NCBI GenBank assembly: GCA_965278945.1
Contig: OZ257128.1
Location: forward strand, 1,261,982 to 1,325,981
Direction: 5' to 3'
Source of the DNA: Actinomycetes bacterium
GTDB lineage: Bacteria > Actinomycetota > Actinomycetes > S36-B12
Length of the DNA stretch: 64,000 nt
Notes under the pieces: model-generated
Seen by the model: the letters and a program-made list of their open reading frames with translations, nothing else
Database searches by the model: none
What the model was told of the DNA's origin: nothing
Position numbers and translations under genes: made by a program
Part shown: positions 1,788 through 61,495 of the stretch, piece by piece
How the letters are laid out: each line of letters begins with the position of its first letter
Numbering within the stretch: the first letter of the stretch is position 1

Positions 1788-2081
1788 ATGACCACTCTCC
1801 ACACAACCCTCGCTGGGGTCGGCGACGAGCTGCTCACCGTTGCGGAAGCTGCGAGAGTCGTGAAGAAGACACCGCAAACAGTGCGAGGGTGGATTCACCA
1901 GGGCCGAATCCCGTACGAGGTCACCCCCAGCGGGCAGTATTTGGTCTGGCGCTCGTGTCTCCTGCAGTCACGACCCAGCCAAGCGACCAACCTGCCTGCG
2001 CAGACATGGCAGCAGGAGATGGCCGACCGTCGAGCAGCGGCGCGAGCTTCTGCAAGGGCCGACGTTCAAGGCGTCGCCTAG
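1788..2081 (+). CDS. excisionase-family helix-turn-helix DNA-binding protein
   Basis: ORF 1719..2081. Internal ATG 1788 gives MTTLHTTLAGVGDELLTVAEAARVVKKTPQTVRGWIHQGRIPYEV, the excisionase/MerR-type HTH pattern (LTVxEAAxxL...TVxxWIxxGxIP). Lies directly upstream of an integrase. Confidence 0.6.
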   Translation: MTTLHTTLAGVGDELLTVAEAARVVKKTPQTVRGWIHQGRIPYEVTPSGQYLVWRSCLLQSRPSQATNLPAQTWQQEMADRRAAARASARADVQGVA

Positions 2082-2139
2082 TGGTAGCGGAGAACGACGG
2101 CCCTCGGCCGGCTAAACAGGGGAGCTGGAGGACACAACG

Positions 2140-3468
2140 ATGACCCGGACATCGCGTGCAGGAAGTCGCCCTCAACCCGCACTCAGGGCAGGCGTCCAGG
2201 TGGTGAACGACGTCGGACTTCTTGGTTGGCGTATCCGCGTGTGGGACCACAAGGCGCACAAGCGCGTCGAGCGATGGGTGTATGGCGACGAGGCCGAAGC
2301 AGTCGTCGCGCTGACCCTGCTACAGAAGGAGATCGATGACAAGGTCTCCGCCACCACGAAGCCACCGTCAACGGTCGGCGAGCTCGCGAACGCCTACCTC
2401 GGGTGGTATCAGTACCGGGAGCCACCCACCGTGAAGAACCCGCGTGGCAAGAAGCGACCGTTCCCGACGTTCGAGAAGGAGAACAACATCGTCGCGCTCT
2501 ATGTGCTTCCCGCACTAGGGCCTGCCACCAAGATTCGGGCGGTCAGTCACACGACGTGCGTCACCTCGATCACCGATCTCGAACTGAAAGACGGCTCACC
2601 GGCGTCTGGCAGCACAAAGGAGACCGCCGCATCGACCATGAAGAAGATGTTCAAGTACGCGGTGTTGCAAGGGTGGTTGACCGCGAATCCCGCGGCAGCC
2701 GTGCCCGCTGTCTGGTCTGACGGAGCGCGCAAACGAGTGGCGATCCCCAGCATGCTTCAGGCCGAACGGATCGCGCGGATTCTCGACGGCTATGGGCCGC
2801 TGCCCACTGGCGTGAAGAGTGCGCTCGCTGAGGGAAGGATGACTCGCGAGAACCTACGACTCGGCGTCTACGGGGATGTGCTTCGAGTCATCGCACTTAC
2901 GGGCCTGAGGATCAGCGAGATCACCGGCCTGACGGTCGACAAGGTCGATCTGGAGAACCGGACAATCACGGTCAACTGGAGGATCACCGAATCCGGTGGT
3001 CAACGAACTGCAGGGGCCACGATGAAGACCTCGGCGGGTGATCGAAACGTCGTAATTATTGATCAGGCGATCGAGCCCCTGGAGCGGCTCCTGGCACGAG
3101 CGAAGCTACTGAAGATCAGCTACCTGGTCGGCGGTCCCGGTGGCGGACCCATGAGCTATCGCACATGGCGAAAGAACCTGAAGAACGCGCGCGCGATTTA
3201 CCCGAAGTTACACGGGGGAGCGGCGGACTACTCGGCCCATGCCTATCGGCACCTCTGCGCGTCCCTCATGATCGCTGCGCACGTCGACATAGAGACGGTG
3301 CGCAACCAGATGGGCCATTCGACGGTCGCCGTCACCCAGAAGGTCTACCGCCACTCCCTGAACCTGAATCAAAAGCAGCTAGCCGCGCGGCTGTCAGCGG
3401 AGATCACTCGACTGCACGCGGAGGCGACCGGACTCCAGGATCAGGAACTGACTGAGGACGTGGCCTAG
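2140..3468 (+). CDS. tyrosine-type site-specific integrase
   Basis: 442-aa ORF. C-terminal catalytic region ...LTGLRISEITGL...HAYRHLCASLMIAAHVDIETVRNQMGHSTVAVTQKVYRH (R..HxxR..Y motif set). Ends 131 bp from the 3' end of tRNA-Val(GAC). True start is uncertain. Confidence 0.85.
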   Translation: MTRTSRAGSRPQPALRAGVQVVNDVGLLGWRIRVWDHKAHKRVERWVYGDEAEAVVALTLLQKEIDDKVSATTKPPSTVGELANAYLGWYQYREPPTVKNPRGKKRPFPTFEKENNIVALYVLPALGPATKIRAVSHTTCVTSITDLELKDGSPASGSTKETAASTMKKMFKYAVLQGWLTANPAAAVPAVWSDGARKRVAIPSMLQAERIARILDGYGPLPTGVKSALAEGRMTRENLRLGVYGDVLRVIALTGLRISEITGLTVDKVDLENRTITVNWRITESGGQRTAGATMKTSAGDRNVVIIDQAIEPLERLLARAKLLKISYLVGGPGGGPMSYRTWRKNLKNARAIYPKLHGGAADYSAHAYRHLCASLMIAAHVDIETVRNQMGHSTVAVTQKVYRHSLNLNQKQLAARLSAEITRLHAEATGLQDQELTEDVA

Positions 3469-3599
3469 TGATGAATAACGCTTCATCTGCGGTTGCCCCC
3501 AACAGGTTGTGGGGGCAACTGTGGGGGCAGGAGTCCTCTTCCGTGAGTCAGACTTCGGAGCGAGATAGGAAACCCGTTGCGTTGCTGAGGGTTCTGGAG

Positions 3600-3672
3600 T
3601 GGGCGATACAGGAATCGAACCTGTGACCTCTTCCGTGTCAAGGAAGCGCGCTAGCCCCTGCGCCAATCGCCC
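3600..3672 (-). tRNA. tRNA-Val (anticodon GAC)
   Basis: Hand-folded cloverleaf on the minus strand: GGGCGAT TG GCGC AGGGGCTA GCGC G CTTCC TTGACAC GGAAG AGGTC ACAGG TTCGATT CCTGT ATCGCCC A. 73 nt, CCA not encoded. Confidence 0.9.
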
Positions 3673-51708: not shown

Positions 51709-51728
51709 TCGGCTTCGTGCCCCGGGTG
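51709..51728. repeat. extra partial copy of the attL flank plus core
   Basis: TCGGCTTCGTGCCCCGGGTG is identical to 51800-51819, 91 bp away. Confidence 0.7.
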
Positions 51729-51807: not shown

Positions 51808-51830
51808 GTGCCCCGGGTGGGATTTGGACC
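51808..51830. repeat. attL core of the phage-like element
   Basis: GTGCCCCGGGTGGGATTTGGACC versus 61421-61443 GTGCCCCGGGTGGGATTTGAACC (22 of 23). Equals a displaced tRNA 3' end. Confidence 0.75.
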
Positions 51831-51933
51831 ACGGCTAGCCCAAAAGCCCCTCACGAATACGGCCCAGAAAGCCGATTCCCTCATAGAGCCTTAGTGCCGA
51901 GTGGTGCCTGTTGGTGTCCACTTGTAGGGACGG

Positions 51934-51953
51934 TGTGCACCCGATGTGCACCC
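51934..51953. repeat. arm-type repeat (tandem GTGCACCC), left copy
   Basis: TGTGCACCCGATGTGCACCC. 19 of 20 identical to 61339-61358, same orientation. Internal 11-nt period. Confidence 0.6.
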
Positions 51954-52040
51954 AAAGACGCCTGCCCCGATGGCAGGTGCCCCGCCCGAGCTGTAACTCG
52001 GACGGGGCGTGCAACACCCCTTCAGAGGAGAGGTACTGCA

Positions 52041-52271
52041 ATGACAAGCAAAGCAGCAATGACCGACATCGAGCGACCCCTTGTCGAACGCCTGGACGGG
52101 CCGAATGGGAGTTTCACGATAAGGCTGACGGATGAGGGTCGCCGAACGCTCACTGCAGCGCAGTGCGTCGAACTAGCAACGCAACTGCGAGATTTCGTCT
52201 CTGAGTTGCTGGACGATGCACGCAGAGCTAAGGCGGAAGCGTCGACAGTCGGGCAGGATCTGGGCACATGA
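52041..52271 (+). CDS. hypothetical protein (76 aa)
   Basis: ATG 52041 with SD GAGGAGAGG. ATGA-coupled to the next ORF. In frame with ORF 51588..52271. Confidence 0.5.
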   Translation: MTSKAAMTDIERPLVERLDGPNGSFTIRLTDEGRRTLTAAQCVELATQLRDFVSELLDDARRAKAEASTVGQDLGT

Positions 52272-52522
52272 CCGATCCGATGCTCATTGGGTTCCCCGAG
52301 GCAGCAGCACGCCTAGGCGTTGCAGAGTCGTGGCTGCGTCGAGCGGTGACCGCCCGGGAGGTGCCGCACAGGCGACTCGGAAAGCGGGTGATGTTCTCCC
52401 TAGCCGACCTCGATCAGATCGTCGCGGAGGCGGAGGTGCCCGCAGTCGTCGCTACGGAGGGGTTCAGGCCCATTCCGAGTCGACGGCGCGCAGGAGGTTT
52501 AGTCCCGCCATCACGCGGGTAG
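52268..52522 (+). CDS. excisionase-family helix-turn-helix protein
   Basis: 84 aa. LIGFPEAAARLGVAESWLRRAVTAREVPHRRLGKRVMFSLADLDQIV fits the excisionase-type HTH pattern. Confidence 0.6.
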   Translation: MTDPMLIGFPEAAARLGVAESWLRRAVTAREVPHRRLGKRVMFSLADLDQIVAEAEVPAVVATEGFRPIPSRRRAGGLVPPSRG

Positions 52523-52607
52523 CACGGGGACTGGGACCGGCGTTCGCCCCCGAGGGCGCCGGTCTCAGTCCTACCGTTTAGGCCAACCGGCAGACGTAGG
52601 GAGCAAT

Positions 52608-52955
52608 ATGCCGATCGATCCGAAGGAATACCGGTACGAAGGCGGCGAGGATCTCACCGGACCAATTAGGGCGGCCGCCGCGGCGTTGGACGCCATGGGT
52701 GTCGAGATGTTCTCAGAAGTGCAGTGGGATGTCGCAGAGAATGTCATCGCGGTCGGCTACGCCCCATATCCGGGCGTAGAGGCGCAGGCATGGGTCCGGG
52801 ACGGACTCGGCCCGGTGTTTACGCTCGGGGCTTTGGAGGCACTTCTGAGTCGCTATGAGGCCTTCGACCAAGGGGACTTAGAGGCGTTCCAGAGCTTCGA
52901 CCCCGTGAACAACCGCCGCGTGGCGATCATCTATGACCTGACGCCTACCGCCTGA
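52608..52955 (+). CDS. hypothetical protein (115 aa)
   Basis: ORF with an acidic, globular-looking sequence. No recognised motif. Confidence 0.5.
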   Translation: MPIDPKEYRYEGGEDLTGPIRAAAAALDAMGVEMFSEVQWDVAENVIAVGYAPYPGVEAQAWVRDGLGPVFTLGALEALLSRYEAFDQGDLEAFQSFDPVNNRRVAIIYDLTPTA

Positions 52956-53009
52956 AGTCGTTGCGCCGTTGTAATTGACGGGGGTCAACCCCGGTCGTAC
53001 AGTTGATAA

Positions 53010-53040
53010 CGGCAAAGTGGCGCTCGCGATGGGTTATCCC
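53010..53040 (-). pseudogene. tRNA fragment: partial copy of the D-arm/anticodon 5' half of the adjacent tRNA-Gly-like gene
   Basis: CGGCAAAGTGGCGCTC (53010-53025) is identical to 53139-53154. TTATCCC recurs after an 8-nt insertion. Confidence 0.55.
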
Positions 53041-53057
53041 TAGCGAGTCCAGATTTA

Positions 53058-53089
53058 GAAAGGCCCCGGGTTACCGCCCGGGGCCTTTC
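53058..53089. terminator. 13-bp perfect-stem hairpin
   Basis: GAAAGGCCCCGGG (53058-53070), loop TTACCG, CCCGGGGCCTTTC (53077-53089). A/T-flanked on both sides. 12 nt beyond the 3' end of the tRNA-like gene. Confidence 0.6.
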
Positions 53090-53101
53090 CCTTGCTATTC
53101 G

Positions 53102-53176
53102 TGCCCCCGGGGAGATTCGAACTCCCGTCCTCCATCTTCGGCAAAGTGGCGCTCTTATCCCCTGAGCTACGGGGGC
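53102..53176 (-). tRNA. tRNA-Gly(GCC)-like gene with a bulged anticodon stem (possibly pseudo or phage-type)
   Basis: Minus strand GCCCCCG TA GCTC AGGGGATAA GAGC G CCACT TTGCCGA AG(A)TGG AGGAC GGGAG TTCGAAT CTCCC CGGGGGC A. 75 nt. Canonical acceptor, D and T arms, but one extra A in the 3' strand of the anticodon stem. Confidence 0.55.
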
Positions 53177-53338
53177 ACGGCCACCGAGCGGCGCAGGGCG
53201 CTACAAGGTGACATGCAAAGCCTAGAGCCAATTTGGGACGCTCGGCACGGCTCGCACCACACACCCCCCCCAAAGCAGCTCGATTCCCGGGCGTGTTGCC
53301 ACAGGGTGGGGTTTTTCAGTTTGCGGGGAGAGATTTAC

Positions 53339-53357
53339 GGAAGCGGCGAGGGTGGCC
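53339..53357. repeat. 19-bp motif GGAAGCGGCGAGGGTGGCC, copy 1
   Basis: Identical core at 57991-58009 and 58058-58076, all in the same orientation. Copies 1 and 2 share about 55 bp (53324-53379 versus 57977-58031). Confidence 0.8.
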
Positions 53358-53377
53358 GGGGGTCGTCTCTTAAAAAG

Positions 53378-56092
53378 TCAGAGCCCGATTACTGAAGGGT
53401 CCTTGCCTCGGCGGCGCATCTCGCGGCCGATGCCGTCGCGAACCGTCGTCACGAGATCACGCTCGCTCATCACGGAGCCCGAGACGTGAACGTCGATGTA
53501 GACGTCCCCGCCACCCTTGCCCCTCATTGAACCGAGCCGGTCGAGCGGAATGACAGCCTCGTCCCCAGCCTCGCCGAGCAGCCCGATCGTCGGGCCGGTC
53601 ACGATCCCGCCATCAGCGAAGTGGGGCATGTTTAGCCCGGCGACAGCAGCGATCGCCGCACCCGAAACGCTCGCCACAGCGACGTCGATGTTGACCGTCC
53701 GACCCATGTCACGCGAGAGCGAGTCCATGACCTCCATCAGCGCGGTACGCCCGGCGCCCTGCGGGCCGAACGTCGCGACGAACGAGTCCGACATCGCCTG
53801 AGCGGCAGCGAGTCCAGCCGTGATGAAGGCCGGCACGATCGCATTCGCGGTCTGCGTTGCCGAGTCCTCAACAGTCGCGAGGTTCTCCGAGAAGTAGCCG
53901 ACAAGCCCCTGATCGAGGATGCCCTGACCAAGTGCGCCGCCGATGGCGACACCCTTCGACATGATCTCTTGGATGAGCGCGTCCGAGCCGCCCTGCTCGC
54001 GGATCGCCTTGATGACGTTCTGGAACCACTCCTGGCCGCGGACCTGATTCTCGAACCCCTGCACGAGCGAGATGCCCGTGGCCTTACCTGCGGAATCCCA
54101 CTGGCCCGTCCACGCGGCACCGAGGTCGATGCCCGAGGTGAACGTGTCCTTGGCGCCGTTGACGAAGTCGTCGAGTGCGCCTTGCGCGTCGGCGAGTGCG
54201 CTACTGACCTCGCCCCATGCATCGGTCACGAGGTCGGCGAAGTCCTGGGCGTTGCCCGCGATGACGTCCTGAACGCCGGAAGCAATGGCAGCGGCCTTCG
54301 CCATCTCGTCGGTGACGGTCTTGACCATCTTCACGCCAGCGGCAACTGCCTTGCTCGAACCCTTGTCGATGCCCGCCGCGACGCCCTCGGCGAGTGGCTC
54401 GCCGACCTCGCGCATCATCAGCTTCGACGGGGAATTGATCTCGGCCGCGTTTCGCGCGGCTCGCTCGGCGGCCTCAACGAGTGCTTTGGCGTTCGCGGCC
54501 GCACCCGGAGTGCCGTCAGCGATGCCCTGTGCCAGCCCTAGTGCCAGGTTCTTACCTAGCCCAGCGCCGAGGGTCATCGCCTTCGCGTAGGCGGCAACGT
54601 GCTTCTCCTTGGAGAAGACTGCCTGAAGCTCATCGCTCCACATCCCCTGTGACTTGAGGAACTTGCGGATGTCCTTCAGGTCGAAGCCCTCGTCGACAAA
54701 CTGCCGCACGACCTTCGCCCCGCGGCCTGCAAAGTTGGCCTCGTACTCCTCAAGGTCGGCCCCGGTGCGCTTCGCCCAGCGGTTCGACTGCTCCGCGGCC
54801 ATGCGGAAGCCCTCCATGACGGCGTCCTGGTTCTTGCGGGCGCCAGCGCCGTAGCCGTCAAACGTGCGAGTCTGCTTTGCCACGTTCTCGTCTAGGTCGC
54901 GTAGCCAGCGGGTGAACTCGAGCCTGCCCTGCGCGTATGACACGACGGTGTTGAATGCCTGCTGCGCGGCGGTCAGTTCCTGGAGCGCCGCAGCCGCATC
55001 CTCTGAGCTTTCGAGGATGTTGCCGTGCTCGTCGACTACCTGCTTGATGCCGTCCTTGTAGGTGACCACGGCGCCGCTCGCATCGCGATAGGAGACGATC
55101 GCCCCCTCGGTCGAAGCCGAGGTGACCTTGGCCCAGGCGTCGGTGTCCCCTGTAAGTGCCTTGATCGCGTCGGATGCCTGCACGATGATGCCGATGACGC
55201 CGGTTCCGAGGTTGACCTTGGAGAGGGCATCCGCGAGTGCCTCGACGCCGGGGACATTCCCCACGAGGCCGGACAGCGCGTCACGGGTCGCGTCGATTCC
55301 GCGGGCCGTAAGGCGGATGCCCTCCCCGATCTCGTCCCCGAGTCGGGCGATCGTATTGACGGTCCCGTCGATGTTGCCCTCGGCACCGGCGAGGATGTTG
55401 AGCGAGTCGATGAGGCCGTATCCGATGGACTCCTGTGCCTCGCTCGCGGCGGTGCTGATCCGCTGGAGCTTGCCCGCCATCGTCTCTGCCGCCGCGGCGG
55501 CCTGGCCCTTGAACTTCTGCGTGAGCTGGTCGGTGGCGTCGGCGAAGTTCTTGGACTTCACTGTGTCGGCGTCGAGCACCGGCGCGAGGCGGTTCAGGGC
55601 GCCGAGGTTGCCGCCGTGGGCCTTGGCGAGTGCCTGCGTGACGGACTCCAGGTTCTTGCCCGTGCCTACTGACACGTCCATCGCGAGCTGGAGGAGCTTC
55701 TGAGACTCGGTGACGTCACCGGTCGCGGTGACCAGATTCTGGTACGCGGGGCGCAGTTGGTCGTCCGCCACACCCGTGGCGAGCATCAAGTCCTTGATGA
55801 AGTTCTCGACCTCGGGGACATGATGCGCCGCGCCGACATTTCGCATGGCCGTTGCCAGAGCCACTTGGGACTTCTCGTCCTCCATGGCTGCCGTTGCTGC
55901 GTCGCGCATGTAGTCGGCGACCTTGGCAATGCCAGCGGTAAGTGCGAACCCGCCGAACACGCCGCCCGCGATCTTGCCCATTGACGCGAACGCGCCCGAG
56001 GTGCGAGTCGCCTGATCGCCGACACCGCGAAGGGTCCGGGACGCCGAGACGTCACGGCCTACGAGGTTGAAGCCAAGGGATGTGTCAGCCAC
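53378..56092 (-). CDS. phage tail tape measure protein
   Basis: 904 aa. GTG 56092 with SD AGGAGA. Ala/Gly-rich helical protein with an N-terminal region typical of TP901-type tape measure proteins. Located in phage context. Confidence 0.85.
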   Translation of the reverse strand: MADTSLGFNLVGRDVSASRTLRGVGDQATRTSGAFASMGKIAGGVFGGFALTAGIAKVADYMRDAATAAMEDEKSQVALATAMRNVGAAHHVPEVENFIKDLMLATGVADDQLRPAYQNLVTATGDVTESQKLLQLAMDVSVGTGKNLESVTQALAKAHGGNLGALNRLAPVLDADTVKSKNFADATDQLTQKFKGQAAAAAETMAGKLQRISTAASEAQESIGYGLIDSLNILAGAEGNIDGTVNTIARLGDEIGEGIRLTARGIDATRDALSGLVGNVPGVEALADALSKVNLGTGVIGIIVQASDAIKALTGDTDAWAKVTSASTEGAIVSYRDASGAVVTYKDGIKQVVDEHGNILESSEDAAAALQELTAAQQAFNTVVSYAQGRLEFTRWLRDLDENVAKQTRTFDGYGAGARKNQDAVMEGFRMAAEQSNRWAKRTGADLEEYEANFAGRGAKVVRQFVDEGFDLKDIRKFLKSQGMWSDELQAVFSKEKHVAAYAKAMTLGAGLGKNLALGLAQGIADGTPGAAANAKALVEAAERAARNAAEINSPSKLMMREVGEPLAEGVAAGIDKGSSKAVAAGVKMVKTVTDEMAKAAAIASGVQDVIAGNAQDFADLVTDAWGEVSSALADAQGALDDFVNGAKDTFTSGIDLGAAWTGQWDSAGKATGISLVQGFENQVRGQEWFQNVIKAIREQGGSDALIQEIMSKGVAIGGALGQGILDQGLVGYFSENLATVEDSATQTANAIVPAFITAGLAAAQAMSDSFVATFGPQGAGRTALMEVMDSLSRDMGRTVNIDVAVASVSGAAIAAVAGLNMPHFADGGIVTGPTIGLLGEAGDEAVIPLDRLGSMRGKGGGDVYIDVHVSGSVMSERDLVTTVRDGIGREMRRRGKDPSVIGL

Positions 56093-56119
56093 GGAAGTCT
56101 CCTAGCGAAGTTGTGGGGT

Positions 56120-56155
56120 GAGCGGGGGCTCCGTATGGAGGCAGAGCCCCCGCTC
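56120..56155 (-). promoter_or_regulatory. 12-bp perfect-stem hairpin between capsid and tape-measure genes
   Basis: GAGCGGGGGCTC (56120-56131) pairs with GAGCCCCCGCTC (56144-56155), 12-nt loop. On the mRNA strand it ends about 20 nt upstream of the tape-measure SD. Confidence 0.5.
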
Positions 56156-56246
56156 GATTGAGTGGGCCGTCCCTGACAAAGACGGGGGTTCCCACTCGCC
56201 CGCGCGGCGGTCGAAAGGACCAAAGGCCCCGCCGCGGGGAGTCAGG

Positions 56247-57716
56247 TCACAGGGTCGGAACGATCAGTCCCGTTCCTGTGATCTTCGAGAAGGCCTTGGG
56301 CTGGCGCGCAGCTGTGAAGGCCGAATACCCGTAGCAAGCCAATCTTGTGGTCAGCGTGTCGATGATCTCGAACTTGAGCTGCACCGGAAGCCCGCCGTTG
56401 TCCTCCATGAGGAACGCATCGCGGAAGTCTCCGACGAAGATCACGGTCTCATTGGTCGAAGCGCCCAGATTTACCGGGATGTTGCCATCCAAGATGACCG
56501 GGACGTTCTGCAACTCGCGGCTGGTTGTCGCGTAGTCGACACCATCCGTCATGCCAAGCGCGTTGAACGGACTGTGCGCGCCCACGAATGGGCGCCCATC
56601 GGTGGCGAGGATCGACGTGATCCACGCCCACAGGTTCGGGTTCATCGCAATGGCGGTTGGCCCTGTGAACCGAGTCGACGTGATCGCGCCAATCGCGGAT
56701 GCGAGCTTCGGCCACAACTCGGCAATCGTCGGGGTGGTGTCCGTGTACGTCACGGACGTGATGCCCGACGTGCCGAAGATGCCCTGGTGCTGTCCGTCCG
56801 CACCGGATCCAGTGAGGACCTGGGCGTCCATCTGCACGGCGTAATCGGATGCGAGATCGGTGAGTGTGATCTCCTCGACGAGAGTGCCCCGCTCGATCGC
56901 CTGCCGAGCCACGTCAACGTAGCCTCCGATCGTCACGACCGGAACCTCCAGCAGCGTGTCGTCGATGTCCTGGTTCGAGAGGGCAGTGTTCTGCGTTGCC
57001 TGCACGCCCGTGGCGGTCTTGGTCGTGATGCGGGGAATATTGACCTTCATGCCGGTAGCTGGCAGCGGAACACCGCTGTTGCACAGGTTCGCCACAGGGC
57101 GGCCCGCACGCAGGTACTCCGCGAACAGGTTGATCATGTACTCCGGCGGCACGAATCCGGCCACGCCGCCCGTGGTGACGGCGCGCTCGACCAATGCGGG
57201 TTGGTGGGTTCGCATCTCCTGGCCGTGCTGCTGAAGCCGAACGGTGGCCTCCGGGTCGAGCTTGATCTGCGCAGCAAACAGGTCCTTGAGGAATGAGTTC
57301 TCCCCGGCCTTGGCACGCTCTTCGCTGTAGGTACGCGGCTCGCGCACCGAAGTAGTAGTCGTCATGCGGTTCTCCTGATTCTGGGCACGGCGCATCTGTC
57401 CGGCCTCGGTCACGTGAAGTTCGTTGGAAAGGCGATCGGCCTCCGCGTCTACGCGGATCTCGATCATCAACTGAGCAATGTCGTCGTCGGCCGCGCGGAG
57501 TTCCTTCTCCATGCGGTCGGCCTGTTCCTCAAGGTCGATCTTCTCCCGACGTAGTTCGGGGATCTTCGCCGAAGTTGCTGCGTCGATGTCGCCGAGGTTG
57601 CGGATGCGCAGGAACTCGTTGGCGAGGTCGTTGATCTGACTCACGACCGCGTTCCTGCGACCCAACAGAGTGTTGCGGTCGGCCTTCTTTTGTTTCAGTA
57701 GTTCGTCAAAGGTCAT
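56247..57716 (-). CDS. phage major capsid protein, HK97-like, with N-terminal coiled-coil extension
   Basis: ORF 56247..57773, start ATG 57716 (MTFDELLKQKK...). About 115 aa of coiled coil, then GGVAGFVPPEYM...VNIPRI...LTGSGADGQHQGIF..., typical of HK97-family capsids. Confidence 0.85.
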   Translation of the reverse strand: MTFDELLKQKKADRNTLLGRRNAVVSQINDLANEFLRIRNLGDIDAATSAKIPELRREKIDLEEQADRMEKELRAADDDIAQLMIEIRVDAEADRLSNELHVTEAGQMRRAQNQENRMTTTTSVREPRTYSEERAKAGENSFLKDLFAAQIKLDPEATVRLQQHGQEMRTHQPALVERAVTTGGVAGFVPPEYMINLFAEYLRAGRPVANLCNSGVPLPATGMKVNIPRITTKTATGVQATQNTALSNQDIDDTLLEVPVVTIGGYVDVARQAIERGTLVEEITLTDLASDYAVQMDAQVLTGSGADGQHQGIFGTSGITSVTYTDTTPTIAELWPKLASAIGAITSTRFTGPTAIAMNPNLWAWITSILATDGRPFVGAHSPFNALGMTDGVDYATTSRELQNVPVILDGNIPVNLGASTNETVIFVGDFRDAFLMEDNGGLPVQLKFEIIDTLTTRLACYGYSAFTAARQPKAFSKITGTGLIVPTL

Positions 57717-57990
57717 GTGGAGCTCCGAAGTCGAAGTGAGCGCAGGCCAGCGCGAAGGCGCCAAGGTGCGCAAAGGGATTCATCGGCGCAGGGAGCAGAC
57801 GCTCCGCGCTCGGTCAGGTCATGTGTCAGAGTCCGAGGGCTGCGGCGGCCGGCAGAGCCGGGAACCGAAACCGAGGTCTCGATGACGACAACCTGAATCG
57901 TCGACATCGCAATGGTACCGGATGTGGGCGACAGATCGCGAGTCACACAATCGGCGTTGGTGGTTGGAAAAAATGTCGGGGAGAGATCAC

Positions 57991-58009
57991 GGAAGCGGCG
58001 AGGGTGGCC
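57991..58009. repeat. 19-bp motif copy 2
   Basis: GGAAGCGGCGAGGGTGGCC, in the 380-bp non-coding stretch upstream of the capsid gene. Confidence 0.8.
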
Positions 58010-58057
58010 GCGCGATCCGTCCTTAAAAGTCCCCAGACAATCTGTGTGTGTAGACGA

Positions 58058-58076
58058 GGAAGCGGCGAGGGTGGCC
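58058..58076. repeat. 19-bp motif copy 3
   Basis: GGAAGCGGCGAGGGTGGCC, about 22 nt from the stop of ORF 58099-58320. Same spacing logic as copy 1 and the tape-measure stop. Confidence 0.8.
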
Positions 58077-58098
58077 ATGCGCCCGCTAGGAAAACGTG

Positions 58099-58320
58099 TC
58101 ATTCGTTCGCCTCGTTCCCGAGCACGATGCCGACCTCGCCATACATGCCGGCCAGCGCAGCGAACAGGCTGGCGAATAGGAGATCACCGCGGACCTCGTG
58201 TGCTGTCGCTTCCTCCTTGCATTGCGTGTAACGGTCGAGCGCTGCCGGTCGGTCGAGCTTGCCTGCGTCGTCGATGACTGCGTGGACGGCGGCGGCGAGT
58301 AGCTCAGCTCCGGTTGTCAT
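58099..58320 (-). CDS. hypothetical protein (73 aa)
   Basis: ATG 58320 (MTTGAELLAAAVHAVIDD...) within ORF 58099..58566. ATGA-coupled to the upstream 39-codon ORF. Confidence 0.45.
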   Translation of the reverse strand: MTTGAELLAAAVHAVIDDAGKLDRPAALDRYTQCKEEATAHEVRGDLLFASLFAALAGMYGEVGIVLGNEANE

Positions 58321-58436
58321 GTGGCTCCCTTGTCTGTCGTGGTGTCGGTGGCGTTCGGGCAGTCGCGTCGGTGCGTTGTCGGCCATTGAGGCCAGGTCAC
58401 GGCGCCGCAATGCGGGCAGCGGGAATGGATGGTCAT
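58317..58436 (-). CDS. 39-aa Cys-containing micro-ORF (CxxC ... C)
   Basis: Own translation: MTIHSRCPHCGAVTWPQWPTTHRRDCPNATDTTTDKGAT. ATGA overlaps at both ends (58433-58436 and 58317-58320). Below the ORF-track size cutoff. Confidence 0.35.
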   Translation of the reverse strand: MTIHSRCPHCGAVTWPQWPTTHRRDCPNATDTTTDKGAT

Positions 58437-59125
58437 CTCCATGGCCCGTCGTGGAGGAAGTGCGGTTCCGGAAGCTCGCAGTGCTCGCACACGCCGGGAA
58501 GGTCGAGTCGGGTGATGAACTGGTGCTGATCTGAGTTGTCGTCGATCTTGTAGGCCCGCCCGTCAACGGTCCGGATCACCGCAATCTCAATCCTTCGTGG
58601 CGAGTCGGTGGAGCGCCCTAGCGCGACATCCGACTCTGCCTCTCTGCTCTTCTCTCTCTGCTTCGCATCGAGAAGAGCAGAGTCTGATTGAGATAGGGGG
58701 GCGTTACTAACGCTGTCCGTAACGCCGTTACTAACGCTGTTACGGACAGCAGGACAGGCCTTAGTGCAAGCAGAGTGATCGCCAGCACTGTGTCGACGTG
58801 CACGGTCGCGGTAGTCGTCCTGCCGCCTGCGGTTCGCCTGGCGGTCACGCTCTACCTGCTCGGCCGATCGTTGGTGACCACCTTCGGATGCGAGGTAGTT
58901 CACGATTCGGTAACCGCCGTCAATCGGATGCCAGAAGCCCTTGTCCACGAGCTCTGCCGCAGACATATCGGGCTCGGGGGAGTCACTGACACGCGAGAGG
59001 CGCATCAGCACGACGCCGTCAGTAAGGGCCGTGACGCAGTGCACGAGCGCCTCAATGTGAAGCAGGCGCGCGTCACGGCTCAGGCCGGCATTCTCGAGCT
59101 GCACGAGCATCTCGCTAGGCACCAT
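58433..59125 (-). CDS. hypothetical protein (230 aa), candidate replication initiator or DNA-binding protein
   Basis: ATG 59125 (MVPSEMLVQLENAGLSRDARLLHIEALVHC...) within ORF 58433..59218. Basic RDRQANRRRQDDYRDRARR segment. Iteron-like DNA repeats lie inside the coding sequence. Confidence 0.5.
   Translation of the reverse strand: MVPSEMLVQLENAGLSRDARLLHIEALVHCVTALTDGVVLMRLSRVSDSPEPDMSAAELVDKGFWHPIDGGYRIVNYLASEGGHQRSAEQVERDRQANRRRQDDYRDRARRHSAGDHSACTKACPAVRNSVSNGVTDSVSNAPLSQSDSALLDAKQREKSREAESDVALGRSTDSPRRIEIAVIRTVDGRAYKIDDNSDQHQFITRLDLPGVCEHCELPEPHFLHDGPWR
58702..58750. repeat. iteron-like repeat cluster (possible ori) inside the 230-aa ORF
   Basis: 15-bp direct repeat CGTTACTAACGCTGT at 58702-58716 and 58726-58740. 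12-bp inverted repeat GCTGTCCGTAAC (58712-58723) and GTTACGGACAGC (58739-58750). Four GTTAC/GTAAC half-sites in 49 bp. Nearby 9-bp inverted repeat at 58644-58652 and 58672-58680 in a CT-rich stretch. Confidence 0.6.
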
Positions 59126-59336
59126 TGCGTAGGCCACGGTGCCCCCAGTCGATCTTGCGAAGGTGCGCTTCGAGCACCTCGCGCTTTCGGAGCTCCGCAG
59201 AGCGACCGGGGTGCTCACGGCGCGCGCGCTCGATCGCGAGTCGCTGTCGCTCGGGGAGCTCTGCGATGTCCTCGATGTCGTTCGCCCTTGCGATGCGTCT
59301 CTCCATCAAGTGGCTGAACCACTCGGGTACGGCCAC
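59115..59336 (-). CDS. hypothetical protein (73 aa)
   Basis: GTG 59336 (VAVPEWFSHLMERRIARANDIEDIAELPERQ...) one nt after the upstream stop. Overlaps the next ORF by 11 nt. Confidence 0.4.
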   Translation of the reverse strand: MAVPEWFSHLMERRIARANDIEDIAELPERQRLAIERARREHPGRSAELRKREVLEAHLRKIDWGHRGLRNGA

Positions 59337-59337
59337 C

Positions 59338-59523
59338 TCAGGACTGGCCGTTCTGCTGCACGAGCCATGCGACGACATCCGACCGCGAGTAGCGAACGGA
59401 GCCCCCGACCATCGTCGCCCGCGGGCCGATGGATCGCTTCCTCCACGCTCGCACGGTCTCGACGCTGATCTTGAGCCAGTCGGCGACTTCCTCGGACTTG
59501 AGGAGTTCGTCTGTGACGGTCAT
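59338..59523 (-). CDS. excisionase/AlpA-type helix-turn-helix protein (61 aa)
   Basis: ATG 59523: MTVTDELLKSEEVADWLKISVETVRAWRKRSIGPRATMVGGSVRYSRSDVVAWL. First gene of the leftward operon. Confidence 0.65.
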   Translation of the reverse strand: MTVTDELLKSEEVADWLKISVETVRAWRKRSIGPRATMVGGSVRYSRSDVVAWLVQQNGQS

Positions 59524-59576
59524 GGGTCTGCACCTCTTCTGTCGGGCCGGAACATGCAATTACCAATATCCACGGG

Positions 59577-59608
59577 TTGACGTAGGTAAACAACACAGAT
59601 AGTGTTGT
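59577..59608. promoter_or_regulatory. divergent promoter/operator region of the element
   Basis: Rightward: TTGACG (59577-59582), 17 nt, TAGTGT (59600-59605). Leftward on the minus strand: TTGTTT (59593-59588), 17 nt, GATATT. Palindrome ACAACAC-AGATA-GTGTTGT (59590-59608) overlaps the rightward -10 and the leftward -35. Confidence 0.4.
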
Positions 59609-59645
59609 GCGCAAGAGAAATGTTGATCAACAGAAGGGGAGCGCG

Positions 59646-60230
59646 ATGGGTTTCGACATTCCCAAGCCAAGGAAGCCCGTCGAGTTGCGTGAGGGCTTAC
59701 TGCGCGCCGGGCCGATTCAGATACTCGACCTTTCCGACGAGAAGGTCCGCTTCGCTTCTGGATGGAACACGCCGCGATGGGTTGACGCCGAGCTCCGTTT
59801 GCCAGGGCAACCTGCTGTACGGCTTCGGGTCGAAGTCCTCGGCAAGAGGCGACTCCGAGCGGTTGTGACCAGCATTGAGCTGACCGAGCCGACGACCGGC
59901 CTTCGAGCGCGCCACCTGCGCGAACTCGCGGCGTCCTTGCCGGACCTCCCGGGCGAGGTGCTGGCTGTTGCGTCACTGCCTATGTACGAGGGCCGACCGG
60001 CCGCCTCCACAAGGGACTGGGACAGGGCGGTGCGAGATGCCGTCCGCGCCCCGGGCCGTAGTCAGGTCGAACGAGAGGACGAGGTTCTGGGGCTCTGGGA
60101 AGGGAAGTTTCAGCCGCGGGGTCTCACTCAGCGCGAAGCTGCCGAGGAGATTGGACTCGCTCACTCGACATTCCGCTCCTACCTCACACATGCACGCGCA
60201 CGGAGGGATGCAAACAATGGCCGTCGTTGA
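59646..60230 (+). CDS. hypothetical protein (194 aa) with C-terminal HTH-like segment
   Basis: ATG 59646 after SD GAAGGGGAG, in frame with ORF 59607..60230. C-terminal LTQREAAEEIGLAHSTFRSYLTHAR. Overlaps the integrase start by 14 nt. Confidence 0.5.
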   Translation: MGFDIPKPRKPVELREGLLRAGPIQILDLSDEKVRFASGWNTPRWVDAELRLPGQPAVRLRVEVLGKRRLRAVVTSIELTEPTTGLRARHLRELAASLPDLPGEVLAVASLPMYEGRPAASTRDWDRAVRDAVRAPGRSQVEREDEVLGLWEGKFQPRGLTQREAAEEIGLAHSTFRSYLTHARARRDANNGRR

Positions 60231-61380
60231 TCGCTGGAAGAACGCTGACGGAAGCCCGAGCGAGGAGAACGGTCGGGGCAAGCGGTGGCTTGTGCGCTAC
60301 CGGGACCCGCAGGGCCAGCAGCGTTCCAAGTCCTTCGACCGCAAGGCCGACGCCGACTCCTACAACCTGGAGACAGCCGTCAACGTCAGGACGGGCATGT
60401 GGGCAGACCCCGCAGCAGGCAAGCAGACCTTCGACACGTTCGCCGAGGCGTGGCTCGACCTGAACCGCCCGCAGTGGCGTGCGACGACGACGCGCAGCAT
60501 GGAGCAGATCGTCCGCAACCGGCTCAAGCCGTCGATCGGCATGACGCCGATGGCACGGATCAATGCCGGTCAGGTGCAGGCGATGGTCAACGGCTGGTCG
60601 GGCACCTACAGCCCCGCGACGATCGCGCTCAACGTCCAGACGTTCCGCACGATCATGGCCGCGGCGATCGAGGCCGGCGTCATCGGCAAGGACCCAGCGC
60701 CCAAGATCAAGGCGCCCAAGCGGTCTCGACGTCGGGACGCACACCTAAGCCACGAGGACGTCGCAACGATCCTGACAACCGCGAGGGGACCCGTTCGGCC
60801 GTTCCTGGCCACGCTGGCATGGTGTGGCCTTCGGATGGGTGAGGGCCTAGGACTCGACGTCGCGGACGTCGACTGGCTGAGCGGCACCGTGACGGTCTCG
60901 AAGCAGCAGTCGACGGAGTACGCCGACTCCACAGTGGACGCGATGCCCAAGACGGAGGCGGCCTACCGGACGGTGCCGTTCCCTCCCGAGCTCGTGGAGA
61001 TGTGCTCGGAGATGCTGGCGGGACGTCGAGCCGGGACAGGGTCGCTCGAGGATGGATACCTGTGGCAGGCGACGGACGGCCGCAGGCTGCAGCGGACCAA
61101 CGTCGACTCGGAGATCCGGCGCATTCGGCGCGTCACGAAGCTCTCCTTCAGCGCCCACCACCTTCGGCACTACTACGGTGCCGCGCTCCTGTCGCAGGGC
61201 GTCCCGATTCCCCAGGTCGCCAAGCAGATGGGCCACGCGAGTCCACAGGTCACGCTCCGGGTGTACGCATACGCGATGACGGACGACGCCGAACTAGGCC
61301 GCGCAGCAGTCGCTCAGATCGCTTCCCTCTCGGCGTCATGTGCACCCGTTGTGCACCCGCAAGCGGCGGGGGAGTCCTAG
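60217..61380 (+). CDS. tyrosine-type phage integrase
   Basis: ATG 60217 after SD GGAGGGA, in frame with ORF 59968..61380. MAVVDRWKNADGSPS... (SAM-like N-terminal domain), catalytic WCGLRMGEGLGL ... HHLRHYYGAALLSQG ... GHASPQVTLRVYAY. Confidence 0.9.
   Translation: MAVVDRWKNADGSPSEENGRGKRWLVRYRDPQGQQRSKSFDRKADADSYNLETAVNVRTGMWADPAAGKQTFDTFAEAWLDLNRPQWRATTTRSMEQIVRNRLKPSIGMTPMARINAGQVQAMVNGWSGTYSPATIALNVQTFRTIMAAAIEAGVIGKDPAPKIKAPKRSRRRDAHLSHEDVATILTTARGPVRPFLATLAWCGLRMGEGLGLDVADVDWLSGTVTVSKQQSTEYADSTVDAMPKTEAAYRTVPFPPELVEMCSEMLAGRRAGTGSLEDGYLWQATDGRRLQRTNVDSEIRRIRRVTKLSFSAHHLRHYYGAALLSQGVPIPQVAKQMGHASPQVTLRVYAYAMTDDAELGRAAVAQIASLSASCAPVVHPQAAGES
61339..61358. repeat. arm-type repeat, right copy (inside integrase 3' end)
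   Basis: TGTGCACCCGTTGTGCACCC, 19 of 20 identical to 51934-51953. Confidence 0.6.
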
Positions 61381-61420
61381 ATGCGACGTCTGCCCTGCTC
61401 AGCGGGGGTAAGCCTGCGAA

Positions 61421-61443
61421 GTGCCCCGGGTGGGATTTGAACC
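61421..61443. repeat. attR core of the phage-like element
   Basis: GTGCCCCGGGTGGGATTTGAACC. Overlaps the acceptor 3' strand and T arm of the tRNA at 61422-61495. Confidence 0.75.
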
Positions 61444-61495
61444 CACACTGGACGGTGTTTGAGACCGCTTCCTCTGCCGGTTGGGATACCGGGGC
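61422..61495 (-). tRNA. tRNA with anticodon CAA (Leu by anticodon), atypical: 74 nt, no long variable arm
   Basis: Minus strand GCCCCGG TA TCC CAACCGGCAGA GGA A GCGGT CTCAAAC ACCGT CCAGT GTGGG TTCAAAT CCCAC CCGGGGC A. Good acceptor, anticodon and T arms, U33, A37, G18G19, A73. 3-bp D stem with an 11-nt loop (class II-like) but only a 5-nt variable region. Confidence 0.7.

What the first reader, a model, noticed from the sequence alone, without database searches (positions are those of the whole stretch)
51808..61443. 9.6-kb integrase-bounded phage-like element whose only structural genes are a capsid and a tape measure (satellite-sized)
Direct repeats GTGCCCCGGGTGGGATTTG[G/A]ACC (51808-51830 and 61421-61443, 22 of 23) bracket 9,636 bp. 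The right copy is the 3' end of the tRNA at 61422-61495, and the integrase (60217-61380) reads toward it. This is classic tRNA-3'-end integration.

Contents:
- integrase and a divergent switch region
- two excisionase-type HTH genes
- a chain of coupled small ORFs, including a 230-aa ORF with internal iteron-like repeats
- an intact HK97-type capsid gene with a coiled-coil (scaffold/delta-like) N-terminus
- after only 154 bp, an intact 904-aa tape-measure gene
- a tRNA-like gene

I see no terminase, portal, prohead protease, connector, tail tube, baseplate or lysis gene in any frame.

This is either a heavily deleted cryptic prophage or a satellite-type element that keeps replication, regulation and a capsid gene while relying on a helper. 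That logic is known from capsid-forming PICI-type satellites and is only sparsely documented in Actinobacteria.

Caveat: at ~70% GC, long ORFs persist by chance, so intactness alone is weak evidence of selection.
Basis: partly seen in the sequence, partly recalled or inferred. Interest (0 to 1): 0.65.

Follow-up and report, generated by a model that had tools for sequence, protein, structure and literature searches.

The report
Small capsid-plus-tape-measure phage satellite
A 9.6-kb mobile element sits in a tRNA-Leu gene of an uncultured actinobacterium; its only virus-particle genes are a capsid and a tail tape measure, and it most likely spreads by borrowing every other particle part from a helper phage, a lifestyle only recently described.

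Summary
A 22/23-nt direct repeat (51808-51830, 61421-61443) brackets 9,636 bp, and the right copy is the 3' end of tRNA-Leu(CAA). Inside are a tyrosine integrase, two HTH_17 genes, a replication initiator with iterons, an intact 489-aa HK97-family capsid gene, an intact 904-aa tape measure (TMP) 154 bp later, and a real tRNA-Gly. No other structural gene was found.

It is not deletion debris:
- The capsid groups with capsids of precisely bounded 8.2-8.3-kb tRNA-integrated elements in Streptomyces and Nanopelagicales that carry no other detected virion gene. One assembles as a closed circle.
- The capsid-then-TMP adjacency recurs in two other diverged elements. One has the same integrase, regulator and excisionase order and the same tRNA-Leu site.
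- In 26 phage contigs with related TMPs the capsid-to-TMP gap is 2.4-4.8 kb.

The TMP is a mosaic of a complete siphophage's TMP, with ends up to 98% nt identical and a replaced middle. A ~60-nt noncoding motif occurs three times in the element and once in that phage, just upstream of terS.

Best reading: a helper-dependent satellite, a new variant of kinds described in 2023-2026 (mycobacterial integrase+capsid candidate PICIs, EPIPs, TMP-encoding PLEs). Helper dependence is inferred, not shown.

The parts
51709..51728 (.). Extra 20-nt copy (8 nt of host flank plus the first 12 nt of the att core), 91 nt left of attL. Probably a scar of earlier use of this site.
   Evidence: Exact repeat D20; sequence read.
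51808..51830 (.). attL: the displaced copy of the tRNA-Leu 3' end (GTGCCCCGGGTGGGATTTGGACC).
52044..52271 (+). 75-aa ORF, first of a three-gene rightward cluster. Function unknown.
   Evidence: ORF and GC3; weak DUF4376 match below the cut-off.
52268..52522 (+). 84-aa HTH_17 protein (excisionase / AlpA-type DNA binder).
   Evidence: PF12728 3e-08; phrog_1840 excisionase 2e-10.
52608..52955 (+). 115-aa ORF of unknown function.
   Evidence: No Pfam, PHROG or PADLOC match.
53058..53089 (.). 14-bp GC-rich hairpin between the converging gene sets, just downstream of tRNA-Gly. Terminator-like.
   Evidence: sequence.
53101..53176 (-). Element-borne tRNA-Gly(GCC), not a copy of the host gene.
   Evidence: ARAGORN; Rfam 54.5 bits; alignment to the host tRNA-Gly.
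53318..53379 (-). Motif copy C (~60 nt, core GGCCACCCTCGCCGCTTCC). It starts 1 nt after the TMP stop codon and lies ~160 nt upstream of tRNA-Gly.
   Evidence: nhmmer E 2.7e-14. 87% identical over 52 nt to phage contig L005 at 424-474.
53378..56092 (-). Tape measure protein, 904 aa, intact. It is a mosaic relative to the TMP of phage contig L005.
   Evidence: PHROG TMP families. Full-length homologues sit in the TMP position of phage tail modules. Mosaic pattern and dN/dS.
56120..56155 (-). Strong 12-bp stem-loop in the 154-bp capsid-TMP spacer, followed by AGGAG and the GTG start of the TMP.
   Evidence: Read directly.
56247..57716 (-). HK97-family major capsid protein, 489 aa, with an N-terminal helical (delta/scaffold-like) domain.
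   Evidence: PF05065 and phrog_2263; homologue lengths; AlphaFold N-terminal hairpin at pLDDT 80-93.
57968..58099 (-). Motif copies B (57968-58033) and A (58036-58099), in tandem within the ~380-bp noncoding region upstream of the capsid gene.
   Evidence: nhmmer E 2.8e-15 and 8.9e-13. Copy B is 80% identical over 61 nt to L005 at 424-483.
58099..58386 (-). Small ORF (up to 95 aa; start uncertain). Function unknown.
58433..59218 (-). Replication initiator-like protein (261 aa from GTG, about 230 aa from the first ATG) with an internal iteron array and palindrome at 58703-58750.
   Evidence: phrog_2447 2e-12 and phrog_3926 2e-10; repeats. The analogous 205-aa O-like initiator in L046 also has iterons.
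59115..59378 (-). 87-aa ORF of unknown function.
59338..59559 (-). 73-aa HTH_17 excisionase/regulator, first gene of the leftward operon.
   Evidence: PF12728 4.5e-11; phrog_66; 54% identical to the L046 counterpart.
59607..60230 (+). 207-aa protein with a C-terminal HTH, overlapping the integrase start. A candidate regulator, conserved with L046 (42% identity).
60217..61380 (+). Tyrosine integrase, 387 aa.
   Evidence: PF00589 3.9e-21 and phrog_1 4.6e-59; 60% identical to the L046 integrase.
61421..61495 (-). tRNA-Leu(CAA). Its 3' 23 nt (61421-61443) are attR.

Best explanation
This is an integrated, probably still mobile phage satellite of an uncultured Actinomycetota host.

Shown
- It sits at the 3' end of tRNA-Leu(CAA), next to a tyrosine integrase.
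- It has its own replication initiator with iterons.
- Its only virion genes are a capsid protein with a built-in N-terminal scaffold-like domain and a full-length tape measure.
- It belongs to a clade of small tRNA-integrating elements (four relatives measured at 8.2-8.3 kb; this one 9.6 kb) in which no structural gene other than the capsid was detected.
- Its TMP and a noncoding motif are shared with a complete siphophage lineage, represented by contig L005.

Inferred
- An L005-like phage acts as helper. It supplies terminase, portal, prohead protease, connectors, tail tube, tail chaperones, tail tip and lysis.
- The ~60-nt motif lies directly upstream of terS in the phage. In the element it lies upstream of capsid-TMP (two copies) and upstream of tRNA-Gly (one copy). 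I think it most likely couples these genes to the helper's late programme as a helper-responsive promoter or operator. It could instead be the terminase recognition (cos-type) site.
- The element's capsid protein builds a small shell sized for about 9.6 kb on helper portal and protease.
- The element's TMP is built into otherwise helper-made tails. Its N- and C-terminal parts stay close to the phage TMP; I assume these ends contact other tail parts. The replaced middle third may escape something that targets the helper's TMP. This follows the precedent of PLE11, which blocks its helper's TMP and uses its own (PMC12987554).
For: Boundaries and integration.

Gene content.

Capsid lineage
- 48-57% identity to capsids of small elements, against 32% to the capsids of the phages that carry related TMPs.
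- Small-element capsids form a clade apart from portal-linked capsids.
- Relatives are bounded by exact tRNA-end repeats and nearly constant in size: 8,253, 8,343 and 8,309 bp. One Streptomyces relative assembles as a closed 8,206-bp circle across attP.
- Over 135 ORFs around 13 capsid loci: capsid 13, tyrosine integrase 6, serine recombinase 3, portal 1.

Conserved capsid-TMP pair
- Spacers are 154 bp in the window, 283 bp in L008 and 152 bp in L046/L047/L048.
- In all 26 IMG/VR contigs with both genes the gap is 2.4-4.8 kb.
- L046 shares the integrase (60% identity), the 207-aa regulator (42%), the excisionase (54%) and the same tRNA-Leu end.

Link to a phage
- The TMP is 60% identical to that of L005, which carries TerS, TerL, portal, protease, capsid, tube and chaperones before its TMP.
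- Patches reach 92-98% nt identity. dN/dS is 0.23 and 0.28 in the conserved ends.
- The motif occurs three times in the element and once in L005, 14-80 nt upstream of terS, and in none of the 48 other loci held at that point (later loci L052-L131 were covered only by blastn).

Precedents: EPIPs (PMC12822802); PLE11 chimeric tails and tmp genes in other satellites (PMC12987554); mycobacterial integrase+capsid candidate PICIs (PMC10654092).
Against: - No helper phage is visible in the 64-kb window, and the rest of the genome could not be read.
- No excision, packaging or transfer is shown for this copy.
- No TerS, cos or pac function is demonstrated. Three copies of a true cos site would be awkward for unit-length packaging.
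- The motif has no sigma-70 consensus and no RNA structure, so its role is a guess.
- TMP presence is patchy in the capsid subclade: L045 and L001 lack it.
- Satellite TMPs are not monophyletic, so the TMP could be a repeatedly captured passenger.
- The family-level gene inventory rests partly on my own ORF calls and on a top-25 Pfam list.
- L005 comes from an unrelated sequencing run, so co-occurrence with this host is unproven.
Confidence: 0.68

Rival explanations
1. Interference or defence island. The capsid and TMP act mainly as dominant-negative parts that poison head and tail assembly of invading L005-like phages. They protect the host population, with little or no transfer of the element itself in particles.
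For: - The TMP keeps phage-like ends but has a replaced middle third, a pattern that could make non-productive tails.
- The motif shared with the phage's terS leader would time expression to infection.
- Satellites and PICIs are known to carry tail-assembly interference functions (PMC11364771, found in the search but not read; PMC12987554).
Against: - No PADLOC defence family matched.
- The element keeps a full integration, excision and replication kit.
- The measured relatives are nearly constant in size at 8.2-8.3 kb. This fits a packaging limit better than a pure defence role.
- Interference and satellite transfer are not mutually exclusive.
Confidence: 0.14
2. Cryptic remnant of a full prophage that lost terminase through protease, connectors through chaperones, and the tail tip and lysis genes by several deletions. 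The surviving ORFs are intact by chance or by youth.
For: - The gene order motif, capsid, TMP is collinear with the phage order motif, terS ... capsid ... TMP.
- High GC makes long ORFs persist.
- Mosaicism is normal among phages, so a capsid at 32% and a TMP at 60% identity to the same phage does not by itself exclude a phage origin.
Against: - The same unusual adjacency, with intact ORFs, appears in two other elements whose capsids are only 50-54% identical.
- No pseudogene fragments of neighbouring phage genes are present.
- dN/dS is 0.23-0.28.
- Capsid relatives are sharply bounded small elements, one of them circular.
- None of 26 phage contigs shows the adjacency.
Confidence: 0.08
3. Helper-independent integrative plasmid or 'mini viral entity'. 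Its capsid forms a tailless, portal-less shell, as proposed for 8.9-kb gut elements, and the TMP is incidental cargo.
For: - A published class of 8.9-kb contigs has capsid, scaffold, integrase and RepA but no portal, terminase or tail (10.1101/2025.06.18.659913).
- The element has its own replication module.
- A relative occurs as a closed circle in an isolate assembly.
Against: - No known route packs dsDNA into an HK97-type shell without portal and terminase.
- The TMP is conserved, under purifying selection and recently exchanged with a tailed phage.
- The shared terS-leader motif points to coupling with a tailed phage.
- The published elements come from the human gut. Their relatedness to this element was not tested.
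Confidence: 0.07

Closest known systems
EPIPs, 'Extracellular Prophage-Inducing Particles' of Mycolicibacterium aichiense (Qian et al., bioRxiv Dec 2025, PMC12822802)
   Same: Actinobacterial host, about 10-kb genome, and both a major capsid protein and a tape measure protein. They lack tail tube, tail tip and lysis genes and are interpreted as a satellite of a siphophage. Reported particles have smaller capsids and altered tails.
   Different: EPIPs have a serine integrase, TerS, head-to-tail adaptor and stopper, and a separate scaffold. Here there is a tyrosine integrase at tRNA-Leu, none of those genes was detected, and the scaffold-like domain is fused to the capsid. Sequence homology could not be tested: no ~11-kb record matched in the phage collection.
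Mycobacterium 'candidate PICIs' and phiRv1/phiRv2 (Abad et al. 2023, PMC10654092; de Sousa et al. 2023, PMC10085698)
   Same: Small integrated regions defined by an integrase plus a major capsid gene. The tyrosine-integrase versions sit at tRNA genes. Some carry replication genes and tRNAs, and they are proposed to be satellites.
   Different: Those papers do not mention a tape measure. Some of those elements carry terminase, scaffold or (from my own knowledge of phiRv1/2) a prohead protease. The host here is not a Mycobacterium. Homology of the capsids was not tested.
Vibrio cholerae PLE11 (Mathur, Boyd et al., Nature 2026, PMC12987554)
   Same: A satellite that encodes its own TMP and builds chimeric tails from helper parts. 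The paper notes putative tmp genes in other satellites, including some cf-PICIs.
   Different: PLEs parasitise a myovirus. They also encode a tail chaperone and a baseplate hub protein, have no capsid gene of their own, and carry the TMP-targeting inhibitor Rta. There is no sequence relationship to this element, and no Rta-like function has been identified here.
Capsid-forming PICIs (cf-PICIs)
   Same: The satellite makes its own capsid from its own HK97-type protein and takes tails from a helper.
   Different: cf-PICIs encode a complete head and packaging set (portal, protease, adaptor, connector, TerS, HNH). This element has only the capsid protein.
P4-type satellites
   Same: The logic is the same: an integrative element with its own replication whose late genes and packaging depend on helper signals shared with the helper genome.
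   Different: P4 has no capsid gene; it resizes the P2 capsid with Sid. None of the P4 marker genes was seen, though they were not searched for by name.
8.9-kb 'mini viral entities' with a lone HK97-fold capsid (Aguilar et al., bioRxiv 2025, 10.1101/2025.06.18.659913)
   Same: Same size class and the same inventory: capsid/scaffold, integrase, excisionase and a replication protein, with no portal, terminase or tail. One genome has an ORF annotated as a tape measure.
   Different: They come from the human gut and are interpreted as tailless, encapsulin-like entities. Relatedness was not tested.

Membership tests
HK97-type major capsid protein (Pfam PF05065) | Match above the Pfam gathering score and full length relative to family members. 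| tested here: met
   67.4 bits against a cut-off of 24.2; phrog_2263 at 1.5e-52; homologues are 470-496 aa.
Tape measure protein of siphophages | Homologues occupy the slot between the tail chaperones and the distal tail protein in complete tail modules, and the protein is collinear over its full length. | tested here: met
   In L005, L006, L007, L043 and L044 the homologue sits in the tail module just upstream of a ~380-430-aa gene; a Pfam tail-tube match plus two small ORFs precede it only in L005 and L006. 904 aa against 902 aa at 100% coverage.
tRNA-integrating tyrosine-recombinase element | The integrase lies next to a tRNA whose 3' end is duplicated at the far boundary. | tested here: met
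Intact temperate siphophage | Terminase, portal, tail tube, tail tip and lysis genes are present. | tested here: not met
   None found by Pfam, PHROGs or tblastn with related phage proteins.
PICI (SatelliteFinder sense, PMC10085698) | Integrase plus an AlpA-type regulator. | tested here: met
   Integrase and two HTH_17 proteins are present. AlpA family membership itself was not scored.
PICI (SatelliteFinder sense, PMC10085698) | A primase-replicase, and a packaging or capsid-redirection module (TerS, Ppi, Cpm or similar). | tested here: not met
   There is a replication initiator (O-like) instead of a pri-rep, and no TerS or redirection homologue.
Capsid-forming PICI | Own capsid together with portal, prohead protease, head-tail adaptor/connector, TerS and HNH. 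| tested here: not met
   Only the capsid is present.
Mycobacterial 'candidate PICI' (operational definition of PMC10654092) | [quoted passage not shown] | tested here: met
   The host is outside Mycobacterium: the best named hits for a flanking gene are Actinomycetota and Actinomycetales MAGs.
EPIP | Major capsid protein and tape measure protein in a genome of about 11 kb. | tested here: met
   The unit is 9,613 bp with both genes.
EPIP | Serine integrase, TerS, head-to-tail adaptor and stopper. | tested here: not met
   The integrase is a tyrosine recombinase, and the other genes were not detected by sequence profiles. Structure-based detection was not done.
EPIP | Sequence homology to EPIP genomes, and induction of a helper prophage. 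| not testable with these tools
   EPIP sequences are not in the collections searched. Induction needs an experiment.
Actinomycete integrative and conjugative element (AICE, pSAM2 type) | A TraB/FtsK-like DNA translocase for conjugation. | tested here: not met
   No such domain appears in any ORF scanned.
Phage satellite (general) | Mobilised and packaged only in the presence of a helper phage. | not testable with these tools
   There is only indirect support: the shared TMP patches and the terS-leader motif in phage contig L005.

The most novel reading that the evidence does not exclude
This would be a two-part hijacking kit. Under this reading, a family of actinobacterial satellites reprograms both ends of the virion with just two genes.

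- The first is a self-scaffolding capsid protein that sets a small head.
- The second is a tape measure whose ends are kept matched to the current helper by recombination, while its middle is swapped.
- A copied terS-leader motif of the helper wires these genes, and a tRNA, to the helper's late programme or to its terminase.

If so, this would be the smallest structural toolkit I know of for a satellite that alters both head and tail. It would also suggest that tail manipulation by satellites, shown so far only in Vibrio PLEs, arose independently in Actinomycetota.
Probability: 0.4. Interest if true: 0.75.

Novelty: new variant of a known kind. Interest (0 to 1): 0.6.

Why it matters
Satellites shape phage-host dynamics, defence and gene flow, but they are barely charted in Actinomycetota, and their manipulation of tails was recognised only in 2025-2026.

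- This element and its relatives in Streptomyces, Nanopelagicales, Marmoricola and soil or freshwater metagenomes suggest that capsid-bearing satellites are widespread in the phylum.
- They give a minimal system of two structural genes for asking what a satellite must supply itself to resize a head and to use or alter a helper's tail.
- The shared terS-leader motif and the mosaic TMP name a candidate helper lineage. That makes the helper-satellite pairing directly testable.
- Annotation pipelines would probably call this an 'incomplete prophage'; I did not run one.

Tried and rejected
- Exact look-ups of the window's own capsid and TMP gave no record, and the cluster look-up gave no name. The organism and the rest of the genome stayed out of reach. 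Only 'Actinomycetota/Actinomycetales MAG' could be inferred from a flanking gene.
- A 37-sequence capsid alignment was too diverse for locus searching. A 16-sequence one worked.
- TMPs of about 735 aa that I suspected were satellite versions turned out to sit in ordinary phage modules.
- Scanning IMG/VR for the 19-nt motif core gave three hits in an unrelated, probably coding context, so they are chance matches.
- The motif has no significant RNA fold (z from -1.2 to +1.3) and no sigma-70 promoter match. An ECF-like reading exists only on the wrong strand, so I rejected it.
- A cos-site reading is kept only as a minority view, because three copies would cut the unit into pieces of about 4.65 and 4.96 kb.
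- The AlphaFold model of the capsid was poor (mean pLDDT 52.8), so no fold search was run. Only the N-terminal helical hairpin is used.
- PADLOC found no defence system.
- Relaxed PHROG scans of the small ORFs found no hidden TerS, adaptor or stopper. Structure-based searches of those ORFs were not done.
- The phage collection has no close TMP relative, only one partial hit (EBPR siphovirus 6).
- The idea that the internal tRNA-Gly marks a second, nested att site was dropped. Its similarity to the att core is only 74%, ordinary tRNA T-arm likeness, and there is no third att copy.

Full report
**Observation**

The 23-nt repeat GTGCCCCGGGTGGGATTTG[G/A]ACC occurs exactly twice in the window, at 51808-51830 and 61421-61443. 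No match is expected by chance.

The right copy is the 3' end of tRNA-Leu(CAA), 61421-61495 on the minus strand. The unit length is 9,613 bp, or 9,636 bp counting both repeats.

GC is 64% in the element and 66% in the window. A GC3 frame plot, together with ORF lists, gives the gene model below.

| Coordinates | Strand | Feature |
|---|---|---|
| 52044-52271, 52268-52522, 52608-52955 | + | 75-aa ORF, 84-aa HTH_17 protein, 115-aa ORF |
| 53058-53089 | . | terminator-like hairpin |
| 53101-53176 | - | tRNA-Gly(GCC) |
| 53378-56092 | - | 904-aa tape measure (TMP) |
| 56247-57716 | - | 489-aa capsid |
| 57717-58098 | . | ~380-bp noncoding stretch |
| 58099-58386 | - | small ORF |
| 58433-59218 | - | replication initiator-like ORF |
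| 59115-59378 | - | 87-aa ORF |
| 59338-59559 | - | 73-aa HTH_17 protein |
| 59607-60230 | + | 207-aa HTH protein |
| 60217-61380 | + | tyrosine integrase |

Support for each call:
- Pfam and PHROGs confirm the integrase, both HTH_17 proteins, the capsid (PF05065 1.8e-18; phrog_2263 1.5e-52) and the replication initiator (phrog_2447 2e-12). TMP families match the middle of the 904-aa protein.
- The initiator ORF holds a 12-nt x3.4 tandem array and a 19-nt palindrome.
- The internal tRNA is genuine (Rfam 54.5 bits). It is not a copy of the host's tRNA-Gly(GCC).
- No terminase, portal, protease, connector, tube, tip or lysis gene was found by Pfam, PHROGs or PADLOC.
- tblastn with 56 proteins from three related phages hit only the capsid and the TMP in all 64 kb.

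**Are the two structural genes intact and real?**

Capsid homologues are typically 470-496 aa and align over the full length. The AlphaFold model is poor overall, but it gives a confident helical hairpin for residues 1-98. That fits a fused delta/scaffold domain.

The TMP has full-length homologues of 870-906 aa. The closest is 902 aa and 60% identical. It lies in contig L005 after TerS, TerL, portal, S78 protease, capsid, tail tube and two chaperone-sized genes, and before a distal-tail-sized gene. L006, L007, L043 and L044 show the same placement. It is a true tape measure.

**Debris or a conserved design?**

Four observations argue for design.

1. Capsid lineage.
   - The capsid is only 32% identical to the capsids of the phages that carry the related TMPs.
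   - It is 48-57% identical to capsids in small elements with no other detected virion gene.
   - In a neighbour-joining tree the small-element capsids form a clade apart from portal-linked capsids.
2. Relatives are small and sharply bounded.
   - Streptomyces pseudogriseolus: tRNA-Thr, 46-nt repeat, 8,253 bp.
   - Another Streptomyces: 8,343 bp.
   - A Nanopelagicales MAG: tRNA-Val, 29-nt repeat, 8,309 bp.
   - A Streptomyces isolate contig closes on itself. Its 95-bp overlap spans element sequence plus a tRNA 3' fragment, which is an attP circle of 8,206 bp.
   - A Pfam census of 135 ORFs around 13 such capsid genes found integrases or serine recombinases in nine and a portal in only one. 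Only the top 25 families were listed, so a rare terminase could be hidden. The per-gene tables for L001-L004 and L046 show none.
3. The capsid-then-TMP adjacency recurs.
   - L008: capsid 54% identical, 283-bp spacer, 789-aa TMP.
   - L046/L047/L048: capsid 50% identical, 152-bp spacer, TMP N-terminus 42-43% identical.
   - L046 also shares the integrase (60%), the 207-aa HTH protein (42%), the excisionase (54%), an O-like initiator with iterons and the same tRNA-Leu end, 31 of 32 nt.
   - At least 590 IMG/VR contigs carry related TMPs. The best 80 were fetched, and in all 26 of those with a detectable capsid the capsid-to-TMP gap is 2.4-4.8 kb.
4. Purifying selection. The conserved TMP ends give dN/dS of 0.23 and 0.28 against the phage homologue.

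**A link to a particular phage lineage**

The TMP is a mosaic of L005's:

| Codons | Identity to L005 TMP |
|---|---|
| 0-60 | 90-92% nt |
| about 230-560 | about 45% nt (25-30% aa) |
| 660-780 | 92-98% nt |

A ~60-nt noncoding motif (core GGCCACCCTCGCCGCTTCC) occurs three times in the window, all inside the element and all on the gene strand. Two tandem copies lie upstream of the capsid. One starts 1 nt after the TMP stop codon and about 160 nt before tRNA-Gly.

The only other place it was found is L005 (nhmmer over the window and loci L001-L051; the IMG/VR loci fetched later were covered only by blastn). There a single copy (nhmmer E 4e-14, 87% identical to copy C) ends 14 nt before the start codon of terS.

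The motif has no RNA fold and no sigma-70 signature. Three viral hits to the core alone are chance.

Satellite TMPs are not monophyletic; each is about as close to phage TMPs as to the others. That fits repeated exchange with phages.

**Mechanism**

Shown:
- integration at tRNA-Leu;
- an autonomous replication module;
- two intact virion genes;
- family conservation;
- sequence sharing with a complete siphophage.

Inferred:
- An L005-like phage supplies everything else.
- I read the motif as a helper-late-programme signal, either a promoter or operator or a terminase site.
- The fused-scaffold capsid protein would build a small head. The narrow 8.2-8.3-kb size of the four measured relatives suggests a packaging limit.
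- The TMP would enter chimeric tails. Its phage-like ends would keep it compatible with helper tail parts.
- The replaced middle may avoid something aimed at the helper's TMP. PLE11's Rta/TMP pair shows this logic (PMC12987554).
- The tRNA-Gly may support translation of the glycine-rich TMP, in which 9.1% of codons are GGC or GGT, against 7.0% in five neighbouring host genes.

None of these inferred steps is demonstrated for this copy. No helper is visible in the window.

**What is already known**

- Integrase-plus-capsid 'candidate PICIs', including phiRv1 and phiRv2, are described in Mycobacterium. No TMP is mentioned there (PMC10654092, PMC10085698).
- EPIPs are ~11-kb satellites of a Mycolicibacterium prophage. 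They encode both a capsid protein and a TMP, and also a serine integrase, TerS, adaptor and stopper (PMC12822802).
- PLE11 uses its own TMP in chimeric tails. The same paper notes tmp genes in other satellites (PMC12987554).
- 8.9-kb gut elements with a lone capsid have also been reported (10.1101/2025.06.18.659913).

The element fails the defining tests for cf-PICI, classical PICI, EPIP, P4 and AICE membership, but it works like them. It is best filed as a new variant: a minimal, tyrosine-integrase, capsid-plus-TMP satellite family in non-mycobacterial Actinomycetota.

**Verdict**

- The satellite reading is favoured, at about 0.68.
- An interference island stands at 0.14, prophage debris at 0.08, and a helper-independent mini-virus at 0.07.
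- Interest is 0.6.

Noticed in passing
window 291-3672: A second tyrosine integrase (2140-3468, +; PF00589 5e-19) reads toward tRNA-Val(GAC) at 3599-3672 (-). ChrB-domain genes lie at 291-1228, and GC is lower there (0.63). This looks like another tRNA-integrated island, cut by the window edge. In the Nanopelagicales locus L009, tRNA-Val(GAC) in the equivalent tRNA cluster is the attachment site of a lone-capsid element.
   Followed up: partly
window 51709-51728: An exact 20-nt copy of host flank plus the first 12 nt of the att core lies 91 nt left of attL. It may be a scar of an earlier integration or excision at tRNA-Leu.
   Followed up: partly
L010 1-8301 (Streptomyces sp. NPDC058103, NZ_JBHVTC010000070.1): This isolate-genome contig carries a lone-capsid relative and closes on itself. 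The 95-bp terminal overlap contains element sequence plus a tRNA 3' fragment, so it is an attP junction. That implies a circular 8,206-bp form in the sequenced culture.
   Followed up: partly
L044 2198-3490: A phage head-maturation gene encodes a 430-aa protein with both Ferritin (PF00210) and Peptidase_S78 domains, lying between portal and capsid. A ferritin-like domain fused to a prohead protease is reminiscent of encapsulin cargo.
   Followed up: no
proteins P0022, P0029, P0050, P0105: Some close capsid homologues (41-51% identity) are 628-685-aa fusions of an S78 prohead protease with the capsid domain. In parts of this lineage, protease and capsid are therefore one gene.
   Followed up: no
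L007 83-1303; L044 5051-6214; L005 22-429: In L007 and L044, Pfam glycosyltransferase genes sit inside the virion structural modules of phages carrying related TMPs. In L005 the 135-aa ORF just upstream of the terS leader motif looked glycosyltransferase-like to me by eye only; no profile matched it.
   Followed up: no
L002 12495-13024 and L003 7500-8029: The Streptomyces lone-capsid elements end with a weak HNH-domain gene and an 81-aa ORF. HNH proteins partner with terminases in cos-type packaging, so these relatives may use a different hijacking route from the window's element.
   Followed up: no
window 53318-53379, 57968-58099: Motif copies B and C are direct repeats bracketing the capsid-TMP cassette. 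Recombination between them would delete both structural genes, which may explain why the TMP and capsid cargo is patchy among relatives.
   Followed up: no
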